A DNA stretch of 64,000 nt from a virus (IMGVR_UViG_2718218393_000006:46356-110355), one strand, 5' to 3'; numbered from the stretch's first letter, positions 969-47,996 are shown. Notes: generated by a model not told the origin, from the letters alone. Program-made: numbers and translations.

Positions 969-1026
969 CTTGAAAACCGTCGTGGGTGCGAGCCCACCGT
1001 GAGTTCGAATCTCACCGCTTCCGCCA
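969..1026 (+). tRNA. 3' half of tRNA-Ser(UGA): duplicated att core, not a complete tRNA
   Basis: CT-TGA-AA anticodon loop, long variable arm (GTGGGTGCGAGCCCAC), T-arm GTGAGTTCGAATCTCAC and CCA end. Upstream bases give no D-arm or 5' stems. Confidence 0.85.
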
Positions 1027-1142
1027 AATTCTAAGCCGTCCATACCCGTGCAAATCAGCGTATAACGCTTATCTGGCAAGGGCTTGGGCGGCTTTTCATT
1101 TTCTCGCCTTGCGCTGCTTTGCGCCGCTTTACGTGGTTCCTA

Positions 1143-1165
1143 GCGCCCCAAATGCGCCCCAAGTT
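1143..1165 (+). promoter_or_regulatory. Putative integrase arm-type sites (left)
   Basis: GCGCCCCAA-AT-GCGCCCCAAGTT; the same motif with the same 11-bp spacing is at 63972-63993. Confidence 0.6.
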
Positions 1166-1170
1166 TTCAA

Positions 1171-1191
1171 CCCGCCCATGGCGGGTTTTTT
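1171..1191 (+). terminator. Rho-independent terminator
   Basis: CCCGCC-CAT-GGCGGG followed by T6. Confidence 0.6.
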
Positions 1192-1207
1192 CATGCCTGG
1201 AGAAAAC

Positions 1208-1825
1208 GTGAAAACCATCGCCACATTCTCGCAAAAAGGCGGCTCGGGTAAGTCTACCCTGGCCGTTCACCTGGGCGTCGCCGCGGAAGAGGACAGCTGC
1301 AAAGTCATCATCTTGGACCGCGACGATGCACAGGCCTCAAGTTCGCGCTGGGCCGCGTGCCGCGCAGCTGCAGCTCCCATCGTCCTCAAGACACCTCCGT
1401 CGAAGCTCCAGGGCGCACTCGATGCCGCCAGGACCAAGGCCTTCGGCCTGGCCATCATCGACGGGCCTCCGCACTCCTCGCCGGATGCCGCTGCAATCGC
1501 GCGGATCGCCGACATCATCCTGATTCCCGTCCGGCCGACGGCATTCGACCTGGCCGCGGTCGGCAATGCAGTGAAGATTGTCACCGCCGCGGGCAAGCAG
1601 CCGCTGTTCGTGCTGTCCGCCTGCCCTTCTCGCGTGCCGGAGGTAGCCGACGCACGCCAGGCACTGGCCGACTTTGGTGACGTGGCGCCGGTGGAGATCG
1701 GCGAACGCATTGCATTTTCACGCGCCATCGCCACCGGCCGATCGGTGACGGAGTTCGACTCTCGCGGCAAGGCTGCGGCCGAGATTCGTGCGTTGTGGCA
1801 GTGGATCAAGGAGAGGGCGAAATGA
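1208..1825 (+). CDS. parA: Short ParA/ParF-type partition ATPase
   Basis: Deviant Walker A QKGGSGKST, IIDGPP, ADIILIPVRP, KAAAEIRALW; GTG start after GGAG. Confidence 0.9.
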   Translation: MKTIATFSQKGGSGKSTLAVHLGVAAEEDSCKVIILDRDDAQASSSRWAACRAAAAPIVLKTPPSKLQGALDAARTKAFGLAIIDGPPHSSPDAAAIARIADIILIPVRPTAFDLAAVGNAVKIVTAAGKQPLFVLSACPSRVPEVADARQALADFGDVAPVEIGERIAFSRAIATGRSVTEFDSRGKAAAEIRALWQWIKERAK

Positions 1826-2357: not shown

Positions 2358-2561
2358 ATGCGCCTCTACCTATCCCCCGACCGCTACTACGCTATCGCCA
2401 TCCAGCTGGATCTGTTCGACAGGCCGGTGATCGTGCGCGCCTGGGGCGGCCGCGGGAGCAGGCGCGGAGGCATGGCAACGGAACCATTCAGCACGGCGCG
2501 ACTCAAGGACATTGACCGTCGCCGGCGACGGCATGGCTACCAACTACACAGGCCCAACTGA
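2358..2561 (+). CDS. WGR-domain protein
   Basis: RYYAIAIQLDLFDRPVIVRAWGGRG pattern. Confidence 0.75.
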   Translation: MRLYLSPDRYYAIAIQLDLFDRPVIVRAWGGRGSRRGGMATEPFSTARLKDIDRRRRRHGYQLHRPN

Positions 2562-3091
2562 TGAAACTCTCCGCCCTGCTCCTCGTCGGCGCTCTTGCAG
2601 CGCCGTTTTCTATTGCTGCGCCGCTGCCGGCCGGCGCCGACTATGAGGTCGGGTTCTCGCCCAATGCCGGCGGCCTAGTACTGGTCTTGCAGGGCATCGA
2701 CGGCGCGAAGTCGTCGATTCTGGTCGCGGCCTACTCATTCACCAGCAAGCCCATTGCCGAGTCGCTGCTGAATGCCCACAAGCGCGGCGTGAAGGTGCAA
2801 GTCGTCGCCGACGAAAAGAGCAACCGCAAGGGTTATAGCGCCGCACAGTTCCTGGCCAATCAAGGCGTGCCGGTCCGGCTCAATGGCAACTATGCCATCT
2901 TCCACCACAAATTCATGGTGATCGACGGCCAGAACGTCGAGACCGGCTCGTTCAACTACAGCGCGGCGGCTGCCAATCGAAATGCCGAGAATGTGCTCCT
3001 GCTGCGCAACGTGAAGCCGCTGGCGAACAAGTACGCGGCTGAGTGGACAAGACTGTGGGACGAGGCCACCCCCTTGCCGAAGGCATACTGA
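2561..3091 (+). CDS. Secreted Nuc-like phospholipase D family endonuclease
   Basis: Signal peptide; VGFSP, AAYSFTS, HHKFMVID (HKD), TGSFNYS, NAENV. Confidence 0.9.
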   Translation: MKLSALLLVGALAAPFSIAAPLPAGADYEVGFSPNAGGLVLVLQGIDGAKSSILVAAYSFTSKPIAESLLNAHKRGVKVQVVADEKSNRKGYSAAQFLANQGVPVRLNGNYAIFHHKFMVIDGQNVETGSFNYSAAAANRNAENVLLLRNVKPLANKYAAEWTRLWDEATPLPKAY

Positions 3092-3158: not shown

Positions 3159-3584
3159 ATGGCCTCCATCCCCCACTTGATCCCGCAACCCGGCGGCCAG
3201 CCGGTGTCGCTCGTTCTGGCCCCGGTTCGTGCCGGGTTTCCGTCACCAGCTGACGACTACCTCGACGACAGCATCAACCTGCATGAGTACCTGGTGGAGG
3301 ATCCGCCGGCGACGTTCATCGTCCGTGTGCGCGGTGACTCCATGATCGGCGCCGGCATCGACAACGGCGACCTGCTAGTGGTGGACAAAGGGCTGACCGC
3401 AAACCATGGGGACATAGTGATCGCCGTGCTAGACGGCGAGTTCACCGTCAAGCGTCTGCACCGCATACGCGGTCACTGCGCGCTGATCGCCGAGAACCCG
3501 GCCTACCCTCCTATCCGGCTGGCCGATGGTCAAGAACTGGAGGTCTGGGGCGTGGTGCGCGGCTGCGTGAAACGGTTCCGCTGA
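3159..3584 (+). CDS. umuD: UmuD-like S24 peptidase subunit of DNA polymerase V
   Basis: [10 protein letters not shown] cleavage region, VRGDSM (Ser), FTVKRL (Lys). Confidence 0.92.
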
Positions 3585-4840
3585 TGTTCGCCCTGGTCGA
3601 CGGCAACAGCTTCTATGCGTCCTGCGAGCGGGTATTCCGGCCCGATCTCGCCGGCAGGCCCATCGTGGTGCTGAGTAATAACGACGGATGCGTCGTCGCC
3701 GCCAGCGCCGAGGCCAAGGCCTTGGGCCTGAAAATGTTCGGCCCCTTCTTCGAAATCGCCGGGCTCTGCCGGCGGCACAAGGTGGCGGTGTTCTCAAGCA
3801 ATTACGCGCTTTACGGCGACATGAGCCACCGCATGATGCGCGTACTGTCCGAGTTCGCGGTGGACCAAGAGGTCTATTCCATCGATGAATCCTTCCTGGA
3901 GATGGAGGGCATGCCCGATCTGGACAGCCACGGCCACCGCATCCGGCAAGCCGTTCTACAACGGGTAGGAATCCCAACATGTGTCGGGTTTGGCACATCG
4001 AAGACTCTTGCCAAGCTGGCCAACCGCGTAGCGAAGAAGCGCAGCGAATGGGGTGGCGTGTTCGCATGGGACTGGCTGACCGCGGCCGAGGCCGACGCTC
4101 TGATGGGGCGAATTCCCGTCGGGGATGTGTGGGGCATCGGCGGCCGACTAACCGAAAAGCTGGGCGCGATGGGCATCACCACCGCGCTGCAGCTCAAACG
4201 CATCGACCCGCGCCGGATCAAGCGTGCTTTTTCGGTCGTGGTGGAGCGCACAGTGCAGGAGCTGAACGGGGTATCCTGCCTGGCCCTGGAAGACGTGGCG
4301 CCGGCGAAACAGCAAATCATCGCGAGCAGATCATTCAGCGAAAAAGTCACCGACCTGGCCACCCTCGCCGCATCCGTCGCCCACCACGCCGCGCGCGGCG
4401 CCGAGAAGCTGCGCCAGCAGCGCAGCGCGGCCAAGTTGGTAGCGGTCCAAATTATGACCAGCCCGTTTTCCGATGAACCGCAATACCGACCCTATATCGT
4501 GGTGCCGCTTGTTCAGCCCAGCAACGACACGCTGCTGATCACCCGCGCGGCGTTGGCAGGCTTACGCCACGTTTACCGGCCAGGCTTCCGCTATCACAAG
4601 GCAGGCATCATGCTGCTTGAGATCGGCGACCAGGCCATACAGCAATCGGACCTGTTCGCTGCGCCGCCTGATCCGCGCCGCGCGCGGCTGATGGCTGCGA
4701 TGGACAAGATCAATCGGAACTGGGGACGTGGCACGCTGCGTACCGCCGCCGAGCAACTGACCGAGGGATGGCACATGCGGCAGGATCTGCGCTCGCCGTG
4801 CTACTCGACGCGGATTGACCAGCTATTGAGCGTCGGCTGA
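3584..4840 (+). CDS. umuC: UmuC Y-family DNA polymerase V subunit
   Basis: [28 protein letters not shown]-terminal W.MRQ...SP.Y.T. Confidence 0.95.
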
Positions 4841-41040: not shown

Positions 41041-41283
41041 TTCCTTGAAAAGTGATCATTTTCAAAGGTTTAGTGCTTTGCCATACTTCACTCAGCACCA
41101 AGCCAGACCCGCTACAGCGCCTCGACCGGCTACCACCTTGGAGCGCGATGCGGGAGTTCTTTGACAACTGGATAAAACGCAAAGGAAATCCATAAATGCA
41201 TGCACAAAGAAGTGGCGCCAGGCTGTCATACACACCGCAATCGTTGCAGCTATCGCAGGGAGCGAGTAAAGACGCACACGCAG

Positions 41284-41350
41284 AAAGAATAACAATTTGT
41301 TATTCTTTTAGCAATAACATTTTGGGAGTTCCAGGCAATAACAATTTGCT
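41284..41350. promoter_or_regulatory. Operator cluster (OR-like)
   Basis: 25-bp palindrome AAAGAATAACAA-T-TTGTTATTCTTT (41284-41308) plus two further CAATAACA half-sites. Confidence 0.75.
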
Positions 41351-41363
41351 GTCAAATCGCAGC

Positions 41364-41729
41364 ATGGAAAGTAAAGAATTTCGTCGTGCCAACTTGCTTG
41401 CCTTGATCGAGCAATATGGAACAATCAGGCACCTAGCCGAAAAGGTTGATGTGGCCCCAAACCATCTGAGCCTTGTGAAAAACCATGTAAGAAACATGGG
41501 GGATAAGCTTGCGCGTCGCATCGAGGAGGCTGTAGGAAAGCCAGTGGGCTGGATGGACTTGCCTCACGATGGTGGCGACTTGGACCTAGCCCAAGATGTG
41601 GCATCAGTTACGATCACAGCTCAGTCTGAAGAGGAGCTCGTGAAGCTCCTGCGCGAAAAGGGCGAAGCCTACGCGTTCGAACTGCTCCGCAAGGCATTCA
41701 TGGAGCAGGAAAACAAAAAGGGCGACTGA
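41364..41729 (+). CDS. CI-like HTH repressor without an S24 peptidase domain
   Basis: RRANL..LI..YG....LAEK....PNHLS..K...RNMGDKLARRIE...GKP.GWMD; 121 aa. Confidence 0.75.
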   Translation: MESKEFRRANLLALIEQYGTIRHLAEKVDVAPNHLSLVKNHVRNMGDKLARRIEEAVGKPVGWMDLPHDGGDLDLAQDVASVTITAQSEEELVKLLREKGEAYAFELLRKAFMEQENKKGD

Positions 41730-42125: not shown

Positions 42126-42878
42126 TTATTCGCATGCCCCGATCTTGTACATCAGCTGCTCTACAGTTGACGCCTCGTAAGTCTCCATCAGGCGTCCGAT
42201 GTGGTAATCGATTGTGTAGACACTCTTGCCTAAAGCTGATGCCACCTCTGCTCTTTTAAACCCTCGCTTACAATACAGATCGATTACGGTTTGCTGGATT
42301 TTGCTCGTTTTAGCAATTCGTGCGTTTGAGGCAAAAACTCTATGCGCGACCTCGGCCAGATCGGGAAGCAGCATTTCGAGCAAATCACGCAGCGCGCGGT
42401 CGTCTTCCACCTGGCGCCCAATCATCGACAGCACGTATCGAACACCGCCGCCCTTATCGGCAATGTAGGTCAGGCCATGCGTTAGCTTGTGGTGCTCGCA
42501 ATCAGAGACGAACCTCCGCTGCGCCTGGGTCAGGCCCTGGGCGTAGAGCCGCGTCGACCACACAACCGGCTCACCTGCGGACGCCCTCACAATGGGGTCA
42601 ACCTTCACGTAACCACGCTCTACGTACCGCAGCAACCAATCCTCAGACCAGCCGTGATTTATGTACAGCGATGGCACCTTGGTCCCGTAGAACGTCGCCA
42701 ACAGCGTCGGCGCACCGCCGGCTACCGTGCACACCAGAGCCAGGGCCGCGTCAAGATCATCGCGCGTCCGAGCACGCACCAGCATGCTGCGCAGCGCTGC
42801 AGCAGCGCAGATTGCTGCATTGATTCTGTTATTGGATATCGCCGCGACTTCCGGCAGCTGATCGATAGCTGTCGTCAT
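42126..42878 (-). CDS. LuxR-family autoinducer-binding transcriptional regulator (solo, phage-encoded)
   Basis: W..RY...Y..VDPIV, VVW and HG match the AHL-pocket residues; C-terminal HTH (AEVASALGKSVYTIDYHI). Confidence 0.85.
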   Translation of the reverse strand: MTTAIDQLPEVAAISNNRINAAICAAAALRSMLVRARTRDDLDAALALVCTVAGGAPTLLATFYGTKVPSLYINHGWSEDWLLRYVERGYVKVDPIVRASAGEPVVWSTRLYAQGLTQAQRRFVSDCEHHKLTHGLTYIADKGGGVRYVLSMIGRQVEDDRALRDLLEMLLPDLAEVAHRVFASNARIAKTSKIQQTVIDLYCKRGFKRAEVASALGKSVYTIDYHIGRLMETYEASTVEQLMYKIGACE

Positions 42879-42942
42879 GAGTCCTCCCCGTCTATTCAAG
42901 GTAGGACATTTCAACGACGCAGAAAACCGCGCCGCCGATTTC

Positions 42943-43278
42943 TCAGCGTGCGGTGGTCAGTAGCCGCTGCACCAGGCGCCAGACTTCGTCCGGCCCTTTG
43001 CTCAGCATTTGCTCAGCTACATCTTCCAGCGAGTCCGCAGAGACGTAAGGGGCCTCCGTGCTCGCCAAGGGCGTCTTACGCCCCTTGCCTGTCTCCAGCC
43101 ATGTCAGCGAGACCCCCAGCGCCTTCGCAATGCCCGGCAGCTTGGCAGACTCGCGATTGCGACCATTCTCCAGGTCAGCAACTATCGACCGACTGCAACC
43201 GGCCCGCCGGCCAAGATCTTCCTGGCGCCAGCCGCGGCGCATGCGCTCGGCCCTGATTCGATCACCTCTTACATTCAT
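42943..43278 (-). CDS. XRE-family HTH regulator
   Basis: GDRIRAER...WRQEDLG...SRSIVADLENG...IAKALGVSLTWLETGKG. Confidence 0.85.
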   Translation of the reverse strand: MNVRGDRIRAERMRRGWRQEDLGRRAGCSRSIVADLENGRNRESAKLPGIAKALGVSLTWLETGKGRKTPLASTEAPYVSADSLEDVAEQMLSKGPDEVWRLVQRLLTTAR

Positions 43279-43535
43279 GCCGCATTGTCGATTACGGCAG
43301 AGATGCCATGGCACCATTCAGAGATGGCATTACATCACAATCGGGCGCAAAAAAGCCCGCGTGAGCGGGCTTGTTGCGGGCGCCAGGTGTTTTTATCTGA
43401 ACGGGTGGGCTCAGCCTGGGCTTGAGGTGAGTCTGCCGGTGGTGGCCGGCGCGGTCAAGACAAAGGAAAACCCGCCGGAGCGGGTTAGGGAAATTGGCAA
43501 GTATATTTTGCCGCTTCAAGCGGAAGGATTGTAAA

Positions 43536-44573
43536 TTACAACACACTAACTAAATAGGCCAACTCTCTCTGGTAGCGGGTAACAGACGAATTTACTTGAA
43601 GCCTCTTCCCTTCCACAGTATGAAAACCACCTATTTGAAGCTTTGAAATAGGGATGCTTTTTGCACCACTAATTCGACCTGAAGAAACGAAATCATCAGT
43701 TAGAACAAATGCATCCGCAGGATCTGACACATCAAAAGCATGATAAAATTTTTCTGCAATTGAAAGCGCACGCTCGACATACATTTTTGATGCTCTATCA
43801 GGCGTGGAACGTATTCGACTTTTCGAACCTACCATTGTCATGACAATTGCAGCTACTTTAGGCACTGACAATCCCCCAGCACGTTCATTCCATACCGCAA
43901 AATCTCGCTTATTATTATGAAGCATATCCAACGTAAGCTCCAGCGACTCAATAGAGTGCTCGTCTACTCGCACAGGTATAACCAATGCGTCTGCAGCACA
44001 CCATGCAAGATGGGTTCCGCCCGCATAAAATGGGCTTGTATCGATGAGAACGCCTTCAGCTTTTTTTTCTTTTGCCTCTTCCGCTAGAACATTTTTCAAG
44101 CTCTCCAGCAAAGACTTCACAGCTTTGGGATTGCTTTGCGAGTGCGCCAGCTGCAGCTGCTGATAAAGTGTCGAAGGAAATGCAAACATTTCAGCATCTC
44201 CAGGAACAACATAGCTCGGCTTTGTTGTTTTAAAAGCACCACAATATTGAGAAACTCTATATGAAAGATCAGATGGCTTTTCACCAAATGCAGGACCAAG
44301 CAGTACAGGCTGCAAGCCCTTTAGAATAGTCACCTCTGGAGTTTCATCACGCATTAGAGTTTCACTCAGATTGCACTGAGGGCAAACATCTGCGACAAGC
44401 ATTGGCCTTCTGATACTCATTTCAAATGCCAAATTGAAGCTAAGCGTGGACTTGCCGACACCACCTCGTAGTGTAGTGACGGCATAGTTTTTGTATTTTA
44501 AATCTCCCGCTCTGACGAAGCCTTCTTCCACGACTTTTCGATGCGTTTCAAAGATTTTATCCAGGCCACCCAT
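43536..44573 (-). CDS. Orphan ParA/Soj-family ATPase (AT-rich)
   Basis: LRGGVGKST (Arg at the signature Lys), ADVCPQCNLS, LIDTSP, ADALVIPV; start MGGLDK. Confidence 0.85.
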   Translation of the reverse strand: MGGLDKIFETHRKVVEEGFVRAGDLKYKNYAVTTLRGGVGKSTLSFNLAFEMSIRRPMLVADVCPQCNLSETLMRDETPEVTILKGLQPVLLGPAFGEKPSDLSYRVSQYCGAFKTTKPSYVVPGDAEMFAFPSTLYQQLQLAHSQSNPKAVKSLLESLKNVLAEEAKEKKAEGVLIDTSPFYAGGTHLAWCAADALVIPVRVDEHSIESLELTLDMLHNNKRDFAVWNERAGGLSVPKVAAIVMTMVGSKSRIRSTPDRASKMYVERALSIAEKFYHAFDVSDPADAFVLTDDFVSSGRISGAKSIPISKLQIGGFHTVEGKRLQVNSSVTRYQRELAYLVSVL

Positions 44574-44624
44574 TTTAGCTTCCCCAAATGTTGAGTTTGT
44601 ACGGCAGACGAGTTGAGCATAGCA

Positions 44625-44779
44625 TGCAGGTGGTGCAGGTGCAACGAAGAAGTGCAGGTGGTGCAGGTGAAACGAAGAAGTGCAGGTGGTGCAGGTGCAA
44701 CGAATAAGTGCAGGTGATGCAGGTGAAACGAAGAAGTGCAGGTGGCGCAGGTGCAACGAAGAAGTGCAGGTGGTGCAGG
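44625..44779. repeat. 5.5 tandem 28-bp repeats upstream of the ParA-like gene
   Basis: Unit TGCAGGTGGTGCAGGTG(C/A)AACGAAGAAG at 44625, 44653, 44681, 44709, 44737; partial at 44765. Confidence 0.95.
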
Positions 44780-44877
44780 AGTTGACGGTAAAAATAAAGA
44801 GAGCACTCAACTGCGCCAAGCCTCGGCCGGTTCATCACCATTCAAGTGGCGGGGCAGAGATTGGGCTCCGACACCTG

Positions 44878-45134: not shown

Positions 45135-45548
45135 TTATTTCTTCTCAAGCCAATAATGCATCCGACTGTCCGGGTCCTCCATCAAGGATTTGCACATGTC
45201 GGAATACTGGAAGAGCAGTCCATCAAAACCTTCGTTTGCTAAGGCTTTTGACTCGATCTGGGTGTGTAGCAGGAGCTTTGATCGAGCGTATTCCGGCGGC
45301 TGCCCCTCCATCAGCACTTCAAGCATCTGCATCGCATGGAGAGCAGATGTCTTACTTGCCTTTGCAGCTGCCTTCCATTTGCTGTCCGTCCGCCCTGATT
45401 CTTCTGAGACCGTTGAAACAATTGTGTAGTAAGCGGCGCATGCAGCCATGTCGTCCGCGAGATTTGCAATGGCCGTTGGTGTGTCATATGCCTTTGCAGG
45501 GCTGGTAGCCAACAGGCCAATGCTGGCCGCCAATACACACACCTTCAT
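45135..45548 (-). CDS. Exported hypothetical protein
   Basis: Signal peptide ending AKA; CAAYY motif. Confidence 0.6.
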   Translation of the reverse strand: MKVCVLAASIGLLATSPAKAYDTPTAIANLADDMAACAAYYTIVSTVSEESGRTDSKWKAAAKASKTSALHAMQMLEVLMEGQPPEYARSKLLLHTQIESKALANEGFDGLLFQYSDMCKSLMEDPDSRMHYWLEKK

Positions 45549-45624
45549 CTCTGTCCCATCAGATGCGGCAGACGCCTCTGTCGCAACTCCGTGAACACAG
45601 ACTTTTCGTCGAAGCCGCCGGACA

Positions 45625-46020
45625 TCAGCATCCCAGCCATGGCGCAATATCCGACTTGTTCTGCACCGCATCCGCCCAGGTACTCATCGGAGTAGCTTTG
45701 CCGTTCTTAATCGTCCAGCGCATCAAAAACTCTCTGTAGTAGCGAGCATCATCCGGTGTTGGTGGCGGCGCCGCGGCGATGATGTGCAGCAGCTGATTTT
45801 TAGGGTCGCCTCCAGTGTTCGTCAGCTCCGAAAATCTCTTGTCGATCTTGAAGCGGCAGGCCTTAAAGGCGTCCCACGCCGTGCCGTGCGCCGCGCTAGG
45901 GATCGCCTTCAGCGCAGCCTCAATCCGTGTCATCGAATCGGCGTAAGTTGCGGTCGGCACCAGAGCCAGGATGCAAGCGAATACCCATACCTTCACAACC
46001 CTCTCCTTTACCCGCATCAA
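45625..46020 (-). CDS. Exported hypothetical protein
   Basis: Signal peptide ending TYA. Confidence 0.5.
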   Translation of the reverse strand: MMRVKERVVKVWVFACILALVPTATYADSMTRIEAALKAIPSAAHGTAWDAFKACRFKIDKRFSELTNTGGDPKNQLLHIIAAAPPPTPDDARYYREFLMRWTIKNGKATPMSTWADAVQNKSDIAPWLGC

Positions 46021-46543: not shown

Positions 46544-47149
46544 TCATGCCAAAAGTAGTTTGATGAAACTCAGCACCGCCAATGGACCCCGGTGCCTAAT
46601 TTCCTCTGCCAGCTTCTCGTCAGACAACTTGGGCAGCATGCCTACCGTGGCATGATTATTGTCCAGCCACGCGTTCGGAAGGCCAGCAGCCACTTCGATC
46701 TTCCTGGCGATCTCATCACCGCAGCGCCGCTCCCCTGACTTGACGGTGCTTAAGTAAGAGGGCGATGTCCCTACCTCGCTGGCAAGCTTTGCCGCCATGC
46801 CACGAATTGCCAAAATGGACATAAGGTTATCTCGGCGAATTCCATATACGTCCTTCAGCTCGCCAAGGGGTTCTACGGGAACGTCTGCATCCCCGCCTCC
46901 AGGGAAGTCCATCCAGCCTCTCGGCTTACCAACAGCGGCCTCAATCTTTCTGGCCAGCAATTCCCCCACCCTCTTCTTGTCGTTCTTCACCTGACTTAAG
47001 TAATTCGGCTTGATCCCAAGCTTGCTCGCCAGCTCGGCCGTTGCCCCTCGGCGTGCCACAAGTGAAAACAGCTTCTCCTTGCGCACTTCGAAAACGTCGG
47101 CAAATCCGTGCCCCTCTTCACGCTGCGTCTCTTCGTCATCATCGCTCAT
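46544..47149 (-). CDS. Repressor-like protein with two tandem HTH domains, paralogous to 41364-41729
   Basis: Two copies of R..L..L...RG..A.LAS..G..P.YLS.VK...R.G...ARKIE.A.G.P..W.D. Confidence 0.75.
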   Translation of the reverse strand: MSDDDEETQREEGHGFADVFEVRKEKLFSLVARRGATAELASKLGIKPNYLSQVKNDKKRVGELLARKIEAAVGKPRGWMDFPGGGDADVPVEPLGELKDVYGIRRDNLMSILAIRGMAAKLASEVGTSPSYLSTVKSGERRCGDEIARKIEVAAGLPNAWLDNNHATVGMLPKLSDEKLAEEIRHRGPLAVLSFIKLLLA

Positions 47150-47210
47150 TCCAACCTCCCGTCTCCAATGCCAGCATCTTACAGCCATGGGTTGGGCGGC
47201 GTGGCGGGCA

Positions 47211-47295
47211 ATTACACAATGTAATTGCATTAAAGCAACACAACCAATTGGAAATATCATTTTGTTATTGATTGATGAATATCTGTTTGTTATTG
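47211..47295. promoter_or_regulatory. Operator cluster (OL-like) / early rightward promoter region
   Basis: ATTACA-CAA-TGTAAT palindrome and two TTTGTTATTG boxes (47261, 47286) matching the 41284 operator half-site. Confidence 0.6.
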
Positions 47296-47996
47296 TTACC
47301 CCATCAGCACAGCAACACAGTGCACCGATCTCTAACAACCAGCAGCGATACGGCACAGCCCAGGGCGCGCAGCAAGGCACCCCCTGTCAGGTCTCAGACC
47401 TGAGGAAGCGATGGCCAAGTCATGCAGAAGCACCTGCATGTCGCGCAAGAGGTTCGCAAGGAGCGGACCAATGACAGCGCAAGCGCCCACCCCACCGTGG
47501 CGAGTAACGGGGGAGTGAAGTAGAAGGCCGCTTTGAGAGAGGCGGCACACTGGATGGGATCGCGCACTGGACATGCGCAAGCGGCGGCAACCGCGAGGCC
47601 CAAGCTGGAAAGTAGGTGTCTGCCAGCCTCATCCAGTGTGAGCGGTAAACAGGCGAGAGCGGCCTGAGTAAAACGGCTTATGCGACTGGCCCGGTCGTTA
47701 AACGGGCACCCACACGCCTGGGTCCTTTGGCTGGACAGCGCCAAGAGCGGGCCTCCTCAGTTCCCAGCCGTGTAGGTCAACGCCAGGAGAAGCATGGATA
47801 TATTTTTGCTCTGGCTTTGGATTCTGATTGGTTGGCGCCCGCGAGAGCGACTTTCCTCGCGCGGCAAGGAAGTCAGATCCACTACGGCAGTAGCATCGCC
47901 ACCACCTCAGATGGCCTGCGCGAAGGGCGCGCAGTAGCCATCGCCAACCTGAGAGACGGGCCGCTTCGGCGGCCGAGACAACTGAAAGGACATCGC

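What the first reader, a model, noticed from the sequence alone, without database searches (positions are those of the whole stretch)
43536..44812. Orphan ParA-like ATPase with an upstream 5.5 x 28-bp tandem repeat array
Seen: an AT-rich 345-aa ParA/Soj-fold gene whose deviant Walker A has Arg in place of the signature Lys (LRGGVGKST), with no ParB or RHH partner nearby. About 50 bp upstream of its start lie 5.5 near-identical 28-bp units containing 11 GCAGGTG boxes at alternating 9/19-bp spacing. A C/A variant alternates between units, giving a 56-bp super-period. The array is bracketed by complementary AGTTGAG (44611) and CTCAACT (44806). The unit is not a multiple of 3 and has no spacers. 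Established: type III toxin-antitoxin loci (ToxIN) put a tandem repeat RNA array directly upstream of a single gene, and prophage immunity regions are defence hot-spots. Inference: a two-part repeat (RNA or DNA) plus ATPase module, either a defence/abortive-infection system or an unusual partition/regulatory one. It is distinct from the true partition pair at 1208-2140.
Basis: partly seen in the sequence, partly recalled or inferred. Interest (0 to 1): 0.85.

Follow-up and report, generated by a model that had tools for sequence, protein, structure and literature searches.

The report
Solo ParA-like gene with phased operator array
A prophage carries a 1.3-kb mobile cassette with one unusual ParA-type ATP-binding protein whose promoter sits in a strictly spaced array of CCTGCA boxes; this gene-plus-array unit recurs across bacterial phyla, is apparently undescribed, and its function is untested.

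Summary
A 28-bp x 5.5 tandem array (44625-44779) with 11 GCAGGTG boxes at 9/19-bp spacing lies 51 bp upstream of a 345-aa ParA/Soj-fold gene (43536-44573, minus strand).

The array is not a local oddity. In 84 of 84 homologous loci with enough upstream DNA, sense-strand CCTGC boxes precede the gene (mean 6.1, against 0.56 antisense). Spacings are almost only 9, 19 or 28 bp. The last box pair usually fills the spacer of a sigma-70-type promoter, so most boxes lie upstream of the predicted start. They are therefore DNA sites, not a ToxI-like RNA.

The protein has an invariant Arg for the signature Lys. It also has an invariant Cys where Soj-type ATPases have the catalytic Asp, the residue mutated to make ATP-trapped dimers.

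The cassette (about 43487-44809, low GC) fills a variable cargo slot in the prophage immunity region. Elsewhere it sits beside CI-like repressors or next to IS1-family transposases. It has no conserved partner gene and is essentially absent from plasmids.

Best reading: a self-contained, autoregulated cassette in which the ATPase binds its own box array. Its benefit to the carrier (exclusion, defence or IS-linked) is untested. This scan met the same cassette before in other genomes.

The parts
43536..44573 (-). ParA/Soj-fold P-loop protein, 345 aa. Walker A reads LRGGVGKST, with Arg36 in place of the signature Lys. Cys64 sits in place of the catalytic Asp of the A' motif. Walker B Asp178 is kept.
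   Evidence: Translation. Pfam and PHROG hits. AF2 model pLDDT 94. Z 25-27 to McdA/Soj/ParA over residues 26-345. Residue alignments to Soj D-to-A trap mutants. Invariant residues listed.
44574..44609 (-). Predicted short 5' leader carrying the Shine-Dalgarno GGGGAA (44580-44585).
   Evidence: Read from the sequence. The transcription start is inferred from the -10 element and was not measured.
44616..44644 (-). Predicted promoter: -35-like TTGCAC (44644-44639), 17-nt spacer filled by the last box pair, extended -10 TGcTATGCT (44624-44616).
   Evidence: Read from the sequence. The same layout, box pair followed within 2-5 nt by TAnnnT, occurs in 36 of 74 non-redundant homologous loci, 21 of them with TGnTAnnnT. 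The strict consensus scan called no promoter because the -35 matches only 3 of 6.
44625..44779 (-). Array of 5.5 units of 28 bp, each with two direct (CA)CCTGCA boxes 9 bp apart and pairs 28 bp apart. Proposed DNA operator or nucleation sites.
   Evidence: TRF. Box positions. Family-wide conservation of the boxes and the 9/19/28 spacing. An independent perfect 28-bp x 3.6 array in a Peptococcaceae MAG.
44802..44817 (-). It lies at the cassette's upstream boundary.
   Evidence: Homology to related proviruses resumes at 44810-44821.
43469..43486 (-). Intrinsic-terminator-like hairpin 50 bp after the ATPase stop codon, at the cassette's downstream boundary.
   Evidence: Homology to related proviruses resumes at 43464-43486.
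43487..44809 (-). The whole cargo cassette of about 1.32 kb, with low GC.
   Evidence: Related proviruses L098-L102 share both flanks at 86-88% identity but hold unrelated DNA in between. GC profile.

Best explanation
The region is a self-contained, horizontally mobile one-gene cassette. Its promoter is built into a phased array of direct CCTGCA boxes: two boxes 9 bp apart, with pairs every 28 bp. The boxes act as double-stranded DNA sites.

The only protein that always travels with the boxes is the ATPase. I therefore infer that the ATPase, as an ATP-bound dimer or higher oligomer, binds the array, covers the -35/-10 spacer, and represses its own transcription.

The protein lacks the catalytic Asp (Cys64) and the signature Lys (Arg36). 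It is therefore probably a slow or non-hydrolysing, long-lived ATP-bound DNA binder rather than a cycling partition motor.

The 28-bp period turns each successive pair by about 120 degrees, so 3 x 28 = 84 bp is about 8 helical turns. This would let bound protein wind around the DNA, as in partition-type nucleoprotein complexes. The window's 5.5 near-identical units are a recent amplification of a shorter functional core.

The cassette is expressed cargo of the prophage immunity region. Its pay-off for the carrier is not known; exclusion or defence against other mobile DNA is the leading guess.

Shown: the anatomy, family-wide conservation of boxes and spacing, the fold, the active-site substitutions, the cassette limits, and the contexts.

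Inferred: who binds the boxes, autorepression, weak hydrolysis, and the biological role.
For: - Boxes are present in 84 of 84 loci, mean 6.1 sense against 0.56 antisense. Distances are 9 (131 times), 19 (223 times) and 28 (46 times).
- Only the box core and the spacing carry information; the linkers are unconserved.
- The last pair lies between TTG.. and TG.TA...T promoter elements in the window, the RsoM1USA phage, and loci L004, L009, L025 and others.
- No other gene is conserved with the tnp-less cassettes. No further box pairs occur in the 110-kb provirus.
- The homologue in Ralstonia phage RsoM1USA (73% identity) has 5 boxes directly before a TATAAT.
- Fold Z 25-27 to the DNA-binding ParA-type ATPases McdA, Soj and ParA.
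- Cys64 aligns with the Asp that is mutated to Ala in the ATP-trapped Soj and ParA crystal forms. Arg36 aligns with the signature Lys. Both are invariant in 16 sequences of 58-84% identity to the window protein.
- The cassette limits are set by relatives carrying other cargo.
- Distant relatives with a canonical KGG motif (phi297, Acinetobacter plasmids) have no array.
Against: - No binding, transcription-start or expression data exist.
- The model shows no separate DNA-binding domain, only a ParA core with insertions.
- Direct repeats fit poorly with a two-fold symmetric ParA dimer.
- The consensus promoter scan called nothing in the region.
- In about a third of loci a small basic protein and an IS1-family transposase are adjacent and could be the box binders there.
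- The box core is invariant, so no protein-DNA covariation test was possible.
- The Aeromonas plasmid relative (34% identity) also has Arg in the Walker A but shows no CCTGCA boxes.
Confidence: 0.55

Rival explanations
1. The cassette is an anti-phage or exclusion system, a lysogen-expressed moron like lambda rexAB. The ParA-like protein senses or blocks incoming DNA, and the array only sets its expression level or acts as a self-titrating site. This is compatible with the best explanation for the cis-element. It is a rival only for the biological role.
For: - It fills a variable cargo slot in the immunity region of related proviruses.
- CI-like neighbours are the most frequent families next to tnp-less cassettes: HTH_3 in 9 and Peptidase_S24 in 8 of 136 ORFs.
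- In RsoM1USA it lies beside attP, a typical moron site.
- phi297's distant relative sits directly after the repressor gene.
- A sibling IS1-type element carries an AAA_21/AAA_15 ATPase of the OLD/AbiEii type in the same slot.
- Earlier scan notes place the cassette in the rexAB slot of E. coli prophages (not re-tested here).
Against: - No PADLOC model matches.
- Neighbours are rarely defence genes: only a few methyltransferases and 2 HEC-09 hits.
- No effector domain (nuclease, pore or similar) is present in the model.
Confidence: 0.25
2. The boxes are bound by some other protein, and the ATPase is only the regulated product. Candidates are the small basic KGG-type protein, the IS1-family transposase's HTH, or a host factor.
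For: - 28 loci have the transposase gene divergent from the ATPase with the array between them, and 20 loci have the small protein gene convergent right at the ATPase stop codon (26 loci carry it in all).
- No obvious DNA-reading domain exists in the ATPase.
Against: - The window, RsoM1USA, L003, L005, L011, L012 and about 30 other loci keep the boxes without either gene.
- Other copies of the same IS in the same genome have no boxes, and their homology ends about 30 bp short of the array.
- Hosts span Pseudomonadota, Acidobacteriota and Bacillota, which argues against a host factor.
Confidence: 0.15
3. It is a minimal partition or positioning system. The array is a centromere, as in type Ib loci with upstream iterated repeats, and the ParA-like protein both binds it and moves it.
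For: - ParA/Soj fold.
- Iterated repeats upstream of parA overlapping its promoter are the type Ib layout (established knowledge).
- The non-integral helical phasing resembles segrosome-type arrays (inference).
Against: - No centromere-binding partner gene is present.
- Only 11 of 72,556 plasmids hold even a relative of at most 34% identity.
- Carriers are integrated prophages and chromosomal sites next to IS elements.
- The catalytic Asp is missing, so the ATP cycling needed for partition is doubtful.
Confidence: 0.08
4. The ATPase is an accessory factor or target for IS1-family transposition, analogous to the MuB, TnsC and IstB ATPases. The array-ATPase complex would attract or regulate the transposase.
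For: - 32 of 92 loci carry the transposase, 28 of them in the same divergent position abutting the array.
- The association is scattered over the whole ATPase tree, with at least 4 independent changes.
- Divergence of the two proteins is barely correlated (r 0.1 after removing near-identical pairs). This suggests repeated association rather than one inheritance.
Against: - The IS is multicopy without the ATPase: 13 transposase matches against 1 ATPase match in one MAG.
- About half of the loci with enough flank lack any transposase.
- No terminal inverted repeats enclosing the unit were found.
- All known transposition ATPases are AAA+ proteins, not ParA-type (established knowledge).
Confidence: 0.1
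5. It is a type III toxin-antitoxin-like module in which the array is transcribed and processed into 28- or 56-nt RNAs that neutralise the protein.
For: The resemblance is superficial: 5.5 tandem units directly upstream of a single gene, in a prophage.
Against: - The fold is ParA, not ToxN/AbiQ.
- The predicted -10 lies downstream of the array, and there is no terminator between array and gene.
- Linkers are unconserved.
- The RNA is less structured than 199 of 200 shuffles.
- No Rfam hit.
- In many homologues the boxes are not in a regular tandem unit.
Confidence: 0.03

Closest known systems
Type Ib plasmid partition loci with an upstream repeat centromere-operator (TP228 parFG-parH, pB171 par2, pSM19035 delta-omega). 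Named from established knowledge. Solved ParF and delta structures appear among the structural matches.
   Same: A ParA-fold ATPase gene preceded by iterated short direct repeats that overlap its own promoter. The phasing is not an integral number of helical turns.
   Different: - No small centromere-binding partner gene.
- The protein is 345 aa with insertions.
- The signature Lys and catalytic Asp are replaced.
- It is found on prophages and next to IS elements, not on plasmids.
Autoregulating ParA proteins that read DNA themselves (F SopA at repeated CTTTGC boxes, P1 ParA at parOP, pCXC100 ParA). From established knowledge, not tested here.
   Same: Precedent for a ParA-type protein binding repeated boxes in its own promoter and repressing it.
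   Different: Those proteins use an extra N-terminal DNA-binding domain and work with a ParB. Here the model shows no extra domain and there is no ParB.
Soj/ParA D-to-A 'ATP-trap' mutants and McdA (PDB 2bek, 8jml, 8ray, 6nop)
   Same: Best structural matches, Z 25-27. The family's invariant Cys64 sits exactly at the Asp that was mutated in these trapped ATP dimers.
   Different: Here the substitution is natural and invariant, and it is combined with Arg for the signature Lys. These proteins bind DNA non-specifically and have partner proteins.
BcsQ (YhjQ), the ParA/MinD-class cellulose-secretion regulator
   Same: Many family members are auto-annotated as BcsQ. There is weak similarity over the P-loop to A' segment (E 7.5e-5; TIGR03371 29.9 bits). 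From memory, BcsQ also has Arg and Cys at the two key positions; no alignment was printed to confirm this.
   Different: The score is far below the family cut-off of 157.85 bits. There is no bcs gene context. Overall the protein is closer to Soj and McdA.
Lambda rexA-rexB and other immunity-region morons
   Same: The same kind of genomic place: lysogen-side cargo beside the repressor genes, exchangeable between related prophages (earlier scan notes).
   Different: No sequence or fold relation. A function in exclusion is untested.
ToxIN type III toxin-antitoxin
   Same: 5.5 tandem units upstream of one gene.
   Different: The fold is different, the repeats are DNA sites upstream of the promoter's -10, and the RNA is unstructured.

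Membership tests
ParA/MinD (SIMIBI) deviant-Walker-A ATPases | ParA/Soj alpha-beta fold | tested here: met
   VIA-align Z 25-27, rmsd 2.2-2.5 A, 236-252 residues aligned to McdA, Soj and ParA. Foldseek E about 1e-11.
ParA/MinD (SIMIBI) deviant-Walker-A ATPases | Signature Lys at the start of the deviant Walker A (KGGxxK[ST]) | tested here: not met
   Arg36 is invariant in 16 family members. It aligns with the Lys of Soj.
ParA/MinD (SIMIBI) deviant-Walker-A ATPases | Catalytic Asp of the A' motif (second Asp of D-x-D-P-Q) | tested here: not met
   Cys64 is invariant in the 16-member core set. It aligns with HpSoj D41 and with the Ala of the D44A and D41A trap mutants.
ParA/MinD (SIMIBI) deviant-Walker-A ATPases | P-loop Lys and Walker B Asp | tested here: met
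   G40, K41 and D178 are invariant in 35 sequences down to 25% identity.
Type Ib partition system | Small centromere-binding protein gene next to parA | tested here: not met
   No ORF is conserved with the cassette in tnp-less loci. A terminator follows the gene in the window.
Type Ib partition system | Iterated repeats upstream of parA overlapping its promoter | tested here: met
Type Ib partition system | Carried by low-copy plasmids | tested here: not met
   Only 11 of 72,556 plasmid records hold a relative, all at 34% identity or less. The window lies in an IMG/VR provirus.
Type III toxin-antitoxin (ToxIN-like) | Toxin is a ToxN/AbiQ-type endoribonuclease | tested here: not met
   ParA fold. 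No PADLOC hit.
Type III toxin-antitoxin (ToxIN-like) | Repeats are transcribed from an upstream promoter and fold into a structured antitoxin RNA | tested here: inconclusive
   The predicted -10 lies downstream of the array. The RNA fold z is +1.9 and there is no Rfam hit.
BcsQ (TIGR03371) | Score above the curated family cut-off | tested here: not met
   29.9 bits against a cut-off of 157.85.
Known anti-phage defence proteins (PADLOC-DB v2) | Match to any defence-system model | tested here: not met
   0 families at E up to 0.01.
Iteron replication origin | Adjacent initiator (rep) gene | tested here: not met
   No rep-like gene is conserved with the cassette.

The most novel reading that the evidence does not exclude
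A naturally ATP-locked ParA-like protein that nucleates on its own 28-bp-phased box array forms a new kind of single-gene mobile-element module. It would be either a one-protein exclusion or defence device carried in the rexAB-type slot of prophages, or a DNA-bound landmark that recruits or regulates IS1-family transposases. This would be the first ParA-type counterpart of the MuB, TnsC and IstB ATPases.
Probability: 0.25. Interest if true: 0.85.

Novelty: new variant of a known kind. Interest (0 to 1): 0.62.

Why it matters
ParA-type ATPases are understood as two-part machines: an ATPase plus a partner that triggers hydrolysis. This family has about a thousand members at E<=1e-10. It travels alone, has lost the catalytic Asp and the signature Lys, and always carries a precisely phased set of DNA boxes in its promoter.

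If the protein reads those boxes itself, it is a compact model for how a ParA fold gains sequence specificity and works as a static switch.

The family recurs in the lysogen-expressed cargo slot of temperate phages and beside IS1-family transposases in several phyla. This points to an unstudied role in conflicts between mobile elements. The role is directly testable with a 1.3-kb fragment.

Tried and rejected
- ToxIN-like RNA reading: rejected on fold, promoter position, unstructured RNA and absence of an Rfam hit.
- Translated N-terminal extension through the array (427-aa ORF): rejected. The unit simply lacks stop triplets, and all homologues align from the ATG behind a Shine-Dalgarno.
- Hidden partner gene: none found. 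The 84-aa ORF overlapping the stop codon (43292-43546) spans the terminators and is not conserved. The small KGG-type protein of IS-linked loci has no tblastn hit in the window.
- Terminal inverted repeats around the transposase-ATPase unit: none found.
- Co-divergence of transposase and ATPase: weak, r 0.1 without near-identical pairs.
- Multicopy cassette within one genome: not seen, one copy in each of 5 MAGs.
- Box-protein covariation: impossible, because the core is invariant. More distant relatives (phi297, Aeromonas and Acinetobacter plasmids) show no recognisable alternative array.
- Literature: searches for ISMhu11, ParA-like defence and IS1 passenger genes gave nothing relevant. The RsoM1USA paper only names ORF57 as a 'ParA family protein'.
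- The 178-aa neighbour (45135-45671) has no relatives in viral contigs.
As a result there is no precomputed gene context and no RNA-seq test of the transcription start.

Full report
**What is there.**
- Tandem Repeats Finder reports a 28-bp unit repeated 5.5 times at 44625-44779 (92% matches, score 275).
- On the + strand it holds 11 GCAGGTG boxes alternately 9 and 19 bp apart.
- The pair pattern CCTGCANNNCCTGCA occurs six times, only here, against 0.79 expected. It occurs nowhere else in the 110-kb provirus record that contains the window.
- The array lies 51 bp upstream of a minus-strand gene, 43536-44573. The gene has 345 codons, an ATG start, a GGGGAA ribosome-binding site, and 41-47% GC in a 58-65% GC background.
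- Pfam AAA_31/CbiA and PHROG 164 'ParA-like partition protein' match it; PADLOC does not.
- The frame is open through the array, but only because the unit has no stop triplets. All homologues align from the ATG.

**The array is a family trait.**
- A 73%-identical gene in Ralstonia phage RsoM1USA sits next to attP. It is preceded by five (C)ACCTGCA boxes ending at a TATAAT.
- I collected 92 loci from genomes, viral contigs and metagenomes.
- In all 84 loci with at least 150 bp upstream, the 250 bp before the gene hold 3-12 sense-strand CCTGC boxes. The mean is 6.1, against 0.56 on the other strand.
- Distances between neighbouring boxes are 9 bp (131 times), 19 bp (223 times) or 28 bp (46 times), and almost nothing else.
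- A position matrix over 121 pairs shows information only in (c)(a/t)CCTGCA and in the spacing; the linker is free.
- A Peptococcaceae MAG has its own perfect 28-bp x 3.6 array with a different linker.
- The window has the largest array of 74 non-redundant loci. Its near-identical units and 56-bp super-period indicate recent amplification of a shorter core.

**DNA sites, not RNA.**
- In the window the last pair fills the 17-nt spacer between TTGCAC (44644-44639) and an extended -10, TGcTATGCT (44624-44616). The predicted start near 44609 therefore leaves the array untranscribed.
- A pair followed within 2-5 nt by TAnnnT is found in 36 of 74 loci by a strict pattern, 21 of them with TGnTAnnnT. 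Often a further box lies just downstream.
- The generic promoter scan calls nothing because the -35 matches only three of six positions. The promoter rests on conservation, not on that scan.
- As RNA the array folds worse than 199 of 200 shuffles, and no Rfam family matches.
- Terminator-like hairpins flank the unit at 44817-44802 and 43486-43469.

**The protein.**
- The family is compact and isolated. Only 437 of 1.84 billion cluster representatives reach E<=0.001, with about twenty full-length clusters. The redundant set holds 988 members at E<=1e-10, many above 70% identity.
- The AlphaFold model is confident (pLDDT 94, pTM 0.92).
- It superposes on McdA, Soj and ParA with Z 25-27 over residues 26-345, with about 250 residues aligned. 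It is therefore a ParA core with insertions: an N-terminal helix, helices around 127-169, and a hairpin at 317-326. It has no separate DNA-binding domain.
- Arg36 replaces the signature Lys. Cys64 occupies the position of the catalytic Asp, the residue changed to Ala in the ATP-trapped Soj and ParA crystal forms. Both are invariant in the core family.
- From established work on such mutants I infer tight ATP binding with little turnover. This is untested.
- Distant relatives with a normal KGG motif have no array.

**Context.**
- Five related proviruses share both flanks at 86-88% identity, up to 43464-43486 on one side and from 44810-44821 on the other. Between the flanks they hold unrelated DNA, for example a histidine-kinase-like ATPase plus a DUF4325 gene. 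The cassette is thus about 43487-44809, in a variable cargo slot of the immunity region.
- That slot lies between an XRE-LuxR operon (42126-43317) and further HTH repressors.
- No neighbour is conserved with such cassettes.
- Among 136 neighbouring ORFs of transposase-free loci, the commonest families are HTH_3 (9), Peptidase_S24 (8) and phage integrase (4), with assorted phage genes. Defence models are rare.
- Sequenced plasmids essentially lack the family.

**The IS link.**
- 32 of 92 loci carry an IS1-family transposase (PF03400). In 28 of them it is divergent from the ATPase with the array in between.
- 26 loci carry a small basic protein, in 20 of them convergent right at the ATPase stop codon. 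Three loci show the inverted arrangement, and two show deletions fusing both genes.
- The association is scattered over the ATPase tree, and the two proteins barely co-diverge.
- In the MAGs the transposase is multicopy (13 matches) while the ATPase is single copy.
- Other copies of the IS end about 30 bp short of the array and have no boxes.
- A sibling element carries an AAA_21/AAA_15 ATPase between the transposase and the small gene.
- The cassette is therefore exchangeable cargo or a preferred neighbour of this IS, not part of its core. No terminal repeats were found.

**Interpretation.** The simplest account is a self-contained cassette whose product binds the phased boxes over its own promoter and represses it. 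The protein would be a long-lived ATP-bound DNA binder rather than a partition motor.
- What supports this: perfect co-occurrence, the absence of any other conserved protein, the promoter geometry, and the active-site changes.
- What is missing: any binding or expression data, and an obvious DNA-reading element. Direct repeats also fit a symmetric dimer poorly.
- Role for the carrier: open. Position argues for a lysogen-expressed exclusion or defence function, or for interplay with IS1-family transposition. Classical partition and a ToxIN-like RNA are disfavoured.

**Earlier notes of this scan.** They describe the same gene-plus-CCTGC-array cassette in other genomes, including E. coli lambda-type prophages where it replaces rexAB. 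My results agree on the array, the IS1 link and the phylum spread. I did not re-test the rexAB replacement. A neighbouring note calls the host Chromobacterium; I did not verify that.

Noticed in passing
window 42126-43317 (minus strand): An XRE-type HTH gene (PF01381) is followed by a LuxR-type autoinducer-binding protein (PF03472, E 1.8e-15) directly downstream of the cassette. This is a phage-borne quorum-sensing receptor module (also an earlier scan note).
   Followed up: no
window 986-1825 (+), with repeats at 585-630 and 2080-2139: A second, small ParA-type ATPase (AAA_31/MipZ/CbiA hits in residues 76-130 of the long ORF) has short tandem repeats on both sides (20 bp x 2.3 and 24 bp x 2.5).
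   Followed up: partly
window 2561-3091 and 3584-4840 (+): A PLD-like nuclease-family protein (PF13091) and a UmuC/ImpB-type Y-family polymerase (PF00817, IMS_C, DUF4113) lie near the start of the window.
   Followed up: no
L102:2931-4267: In a related provirus the same cargo slot holds a 337-aa protein with a weak histidine-kinase-like ATPase hit plus a DUF4325 (STAS-like) protein. Other relatives carry unannotated genes there.
   Followed up: partly
L123:2039-4810 (MAG contig G002:C17): An IS1-family transposase and the small KGG-type protein gene flank a 540-aa AAA_21/AAA_15 ATPase (OLD/AbiEii-like) in the position where other copies carry the ParA-like cassette. This suggests an IS1-type element with an exchangeable cargo slot.
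   Followed up: partly
L008:3329-4876 and L010:3348-4405: Two independent deletions join a 5'-truncated transposase gene to a 5'-truncated ATPase gene. They remove the array and both gene starts.
   Followed up: partly
L009:3885-5067: A Peptococcaceae MAG has a perfect 28-bp x 3.6 array, but its ATPase gene is broken by a frame change and one TGA.
   Followed up: partly
window 41196-41729 (+) and 46544-47380 (-): Two HTH regulators hit the same PHROG families (5736 and 12107). The longer one holds two copies of the unit. They flank the immunity region that contains the cassette.
   Followed up: no
Small proteins at L004:5040-5300, L010:4403-4660, L006:3659-3874: A conserved 70-90-aa basic protein with the C-terminal motif GR.GG.KGG.ARA..L(T/S)PE.R.EIA.KAA.ARW matches no Pfam or NCBIfam model. 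It recurs beside IS1-family transposases.
   Followed up: partly
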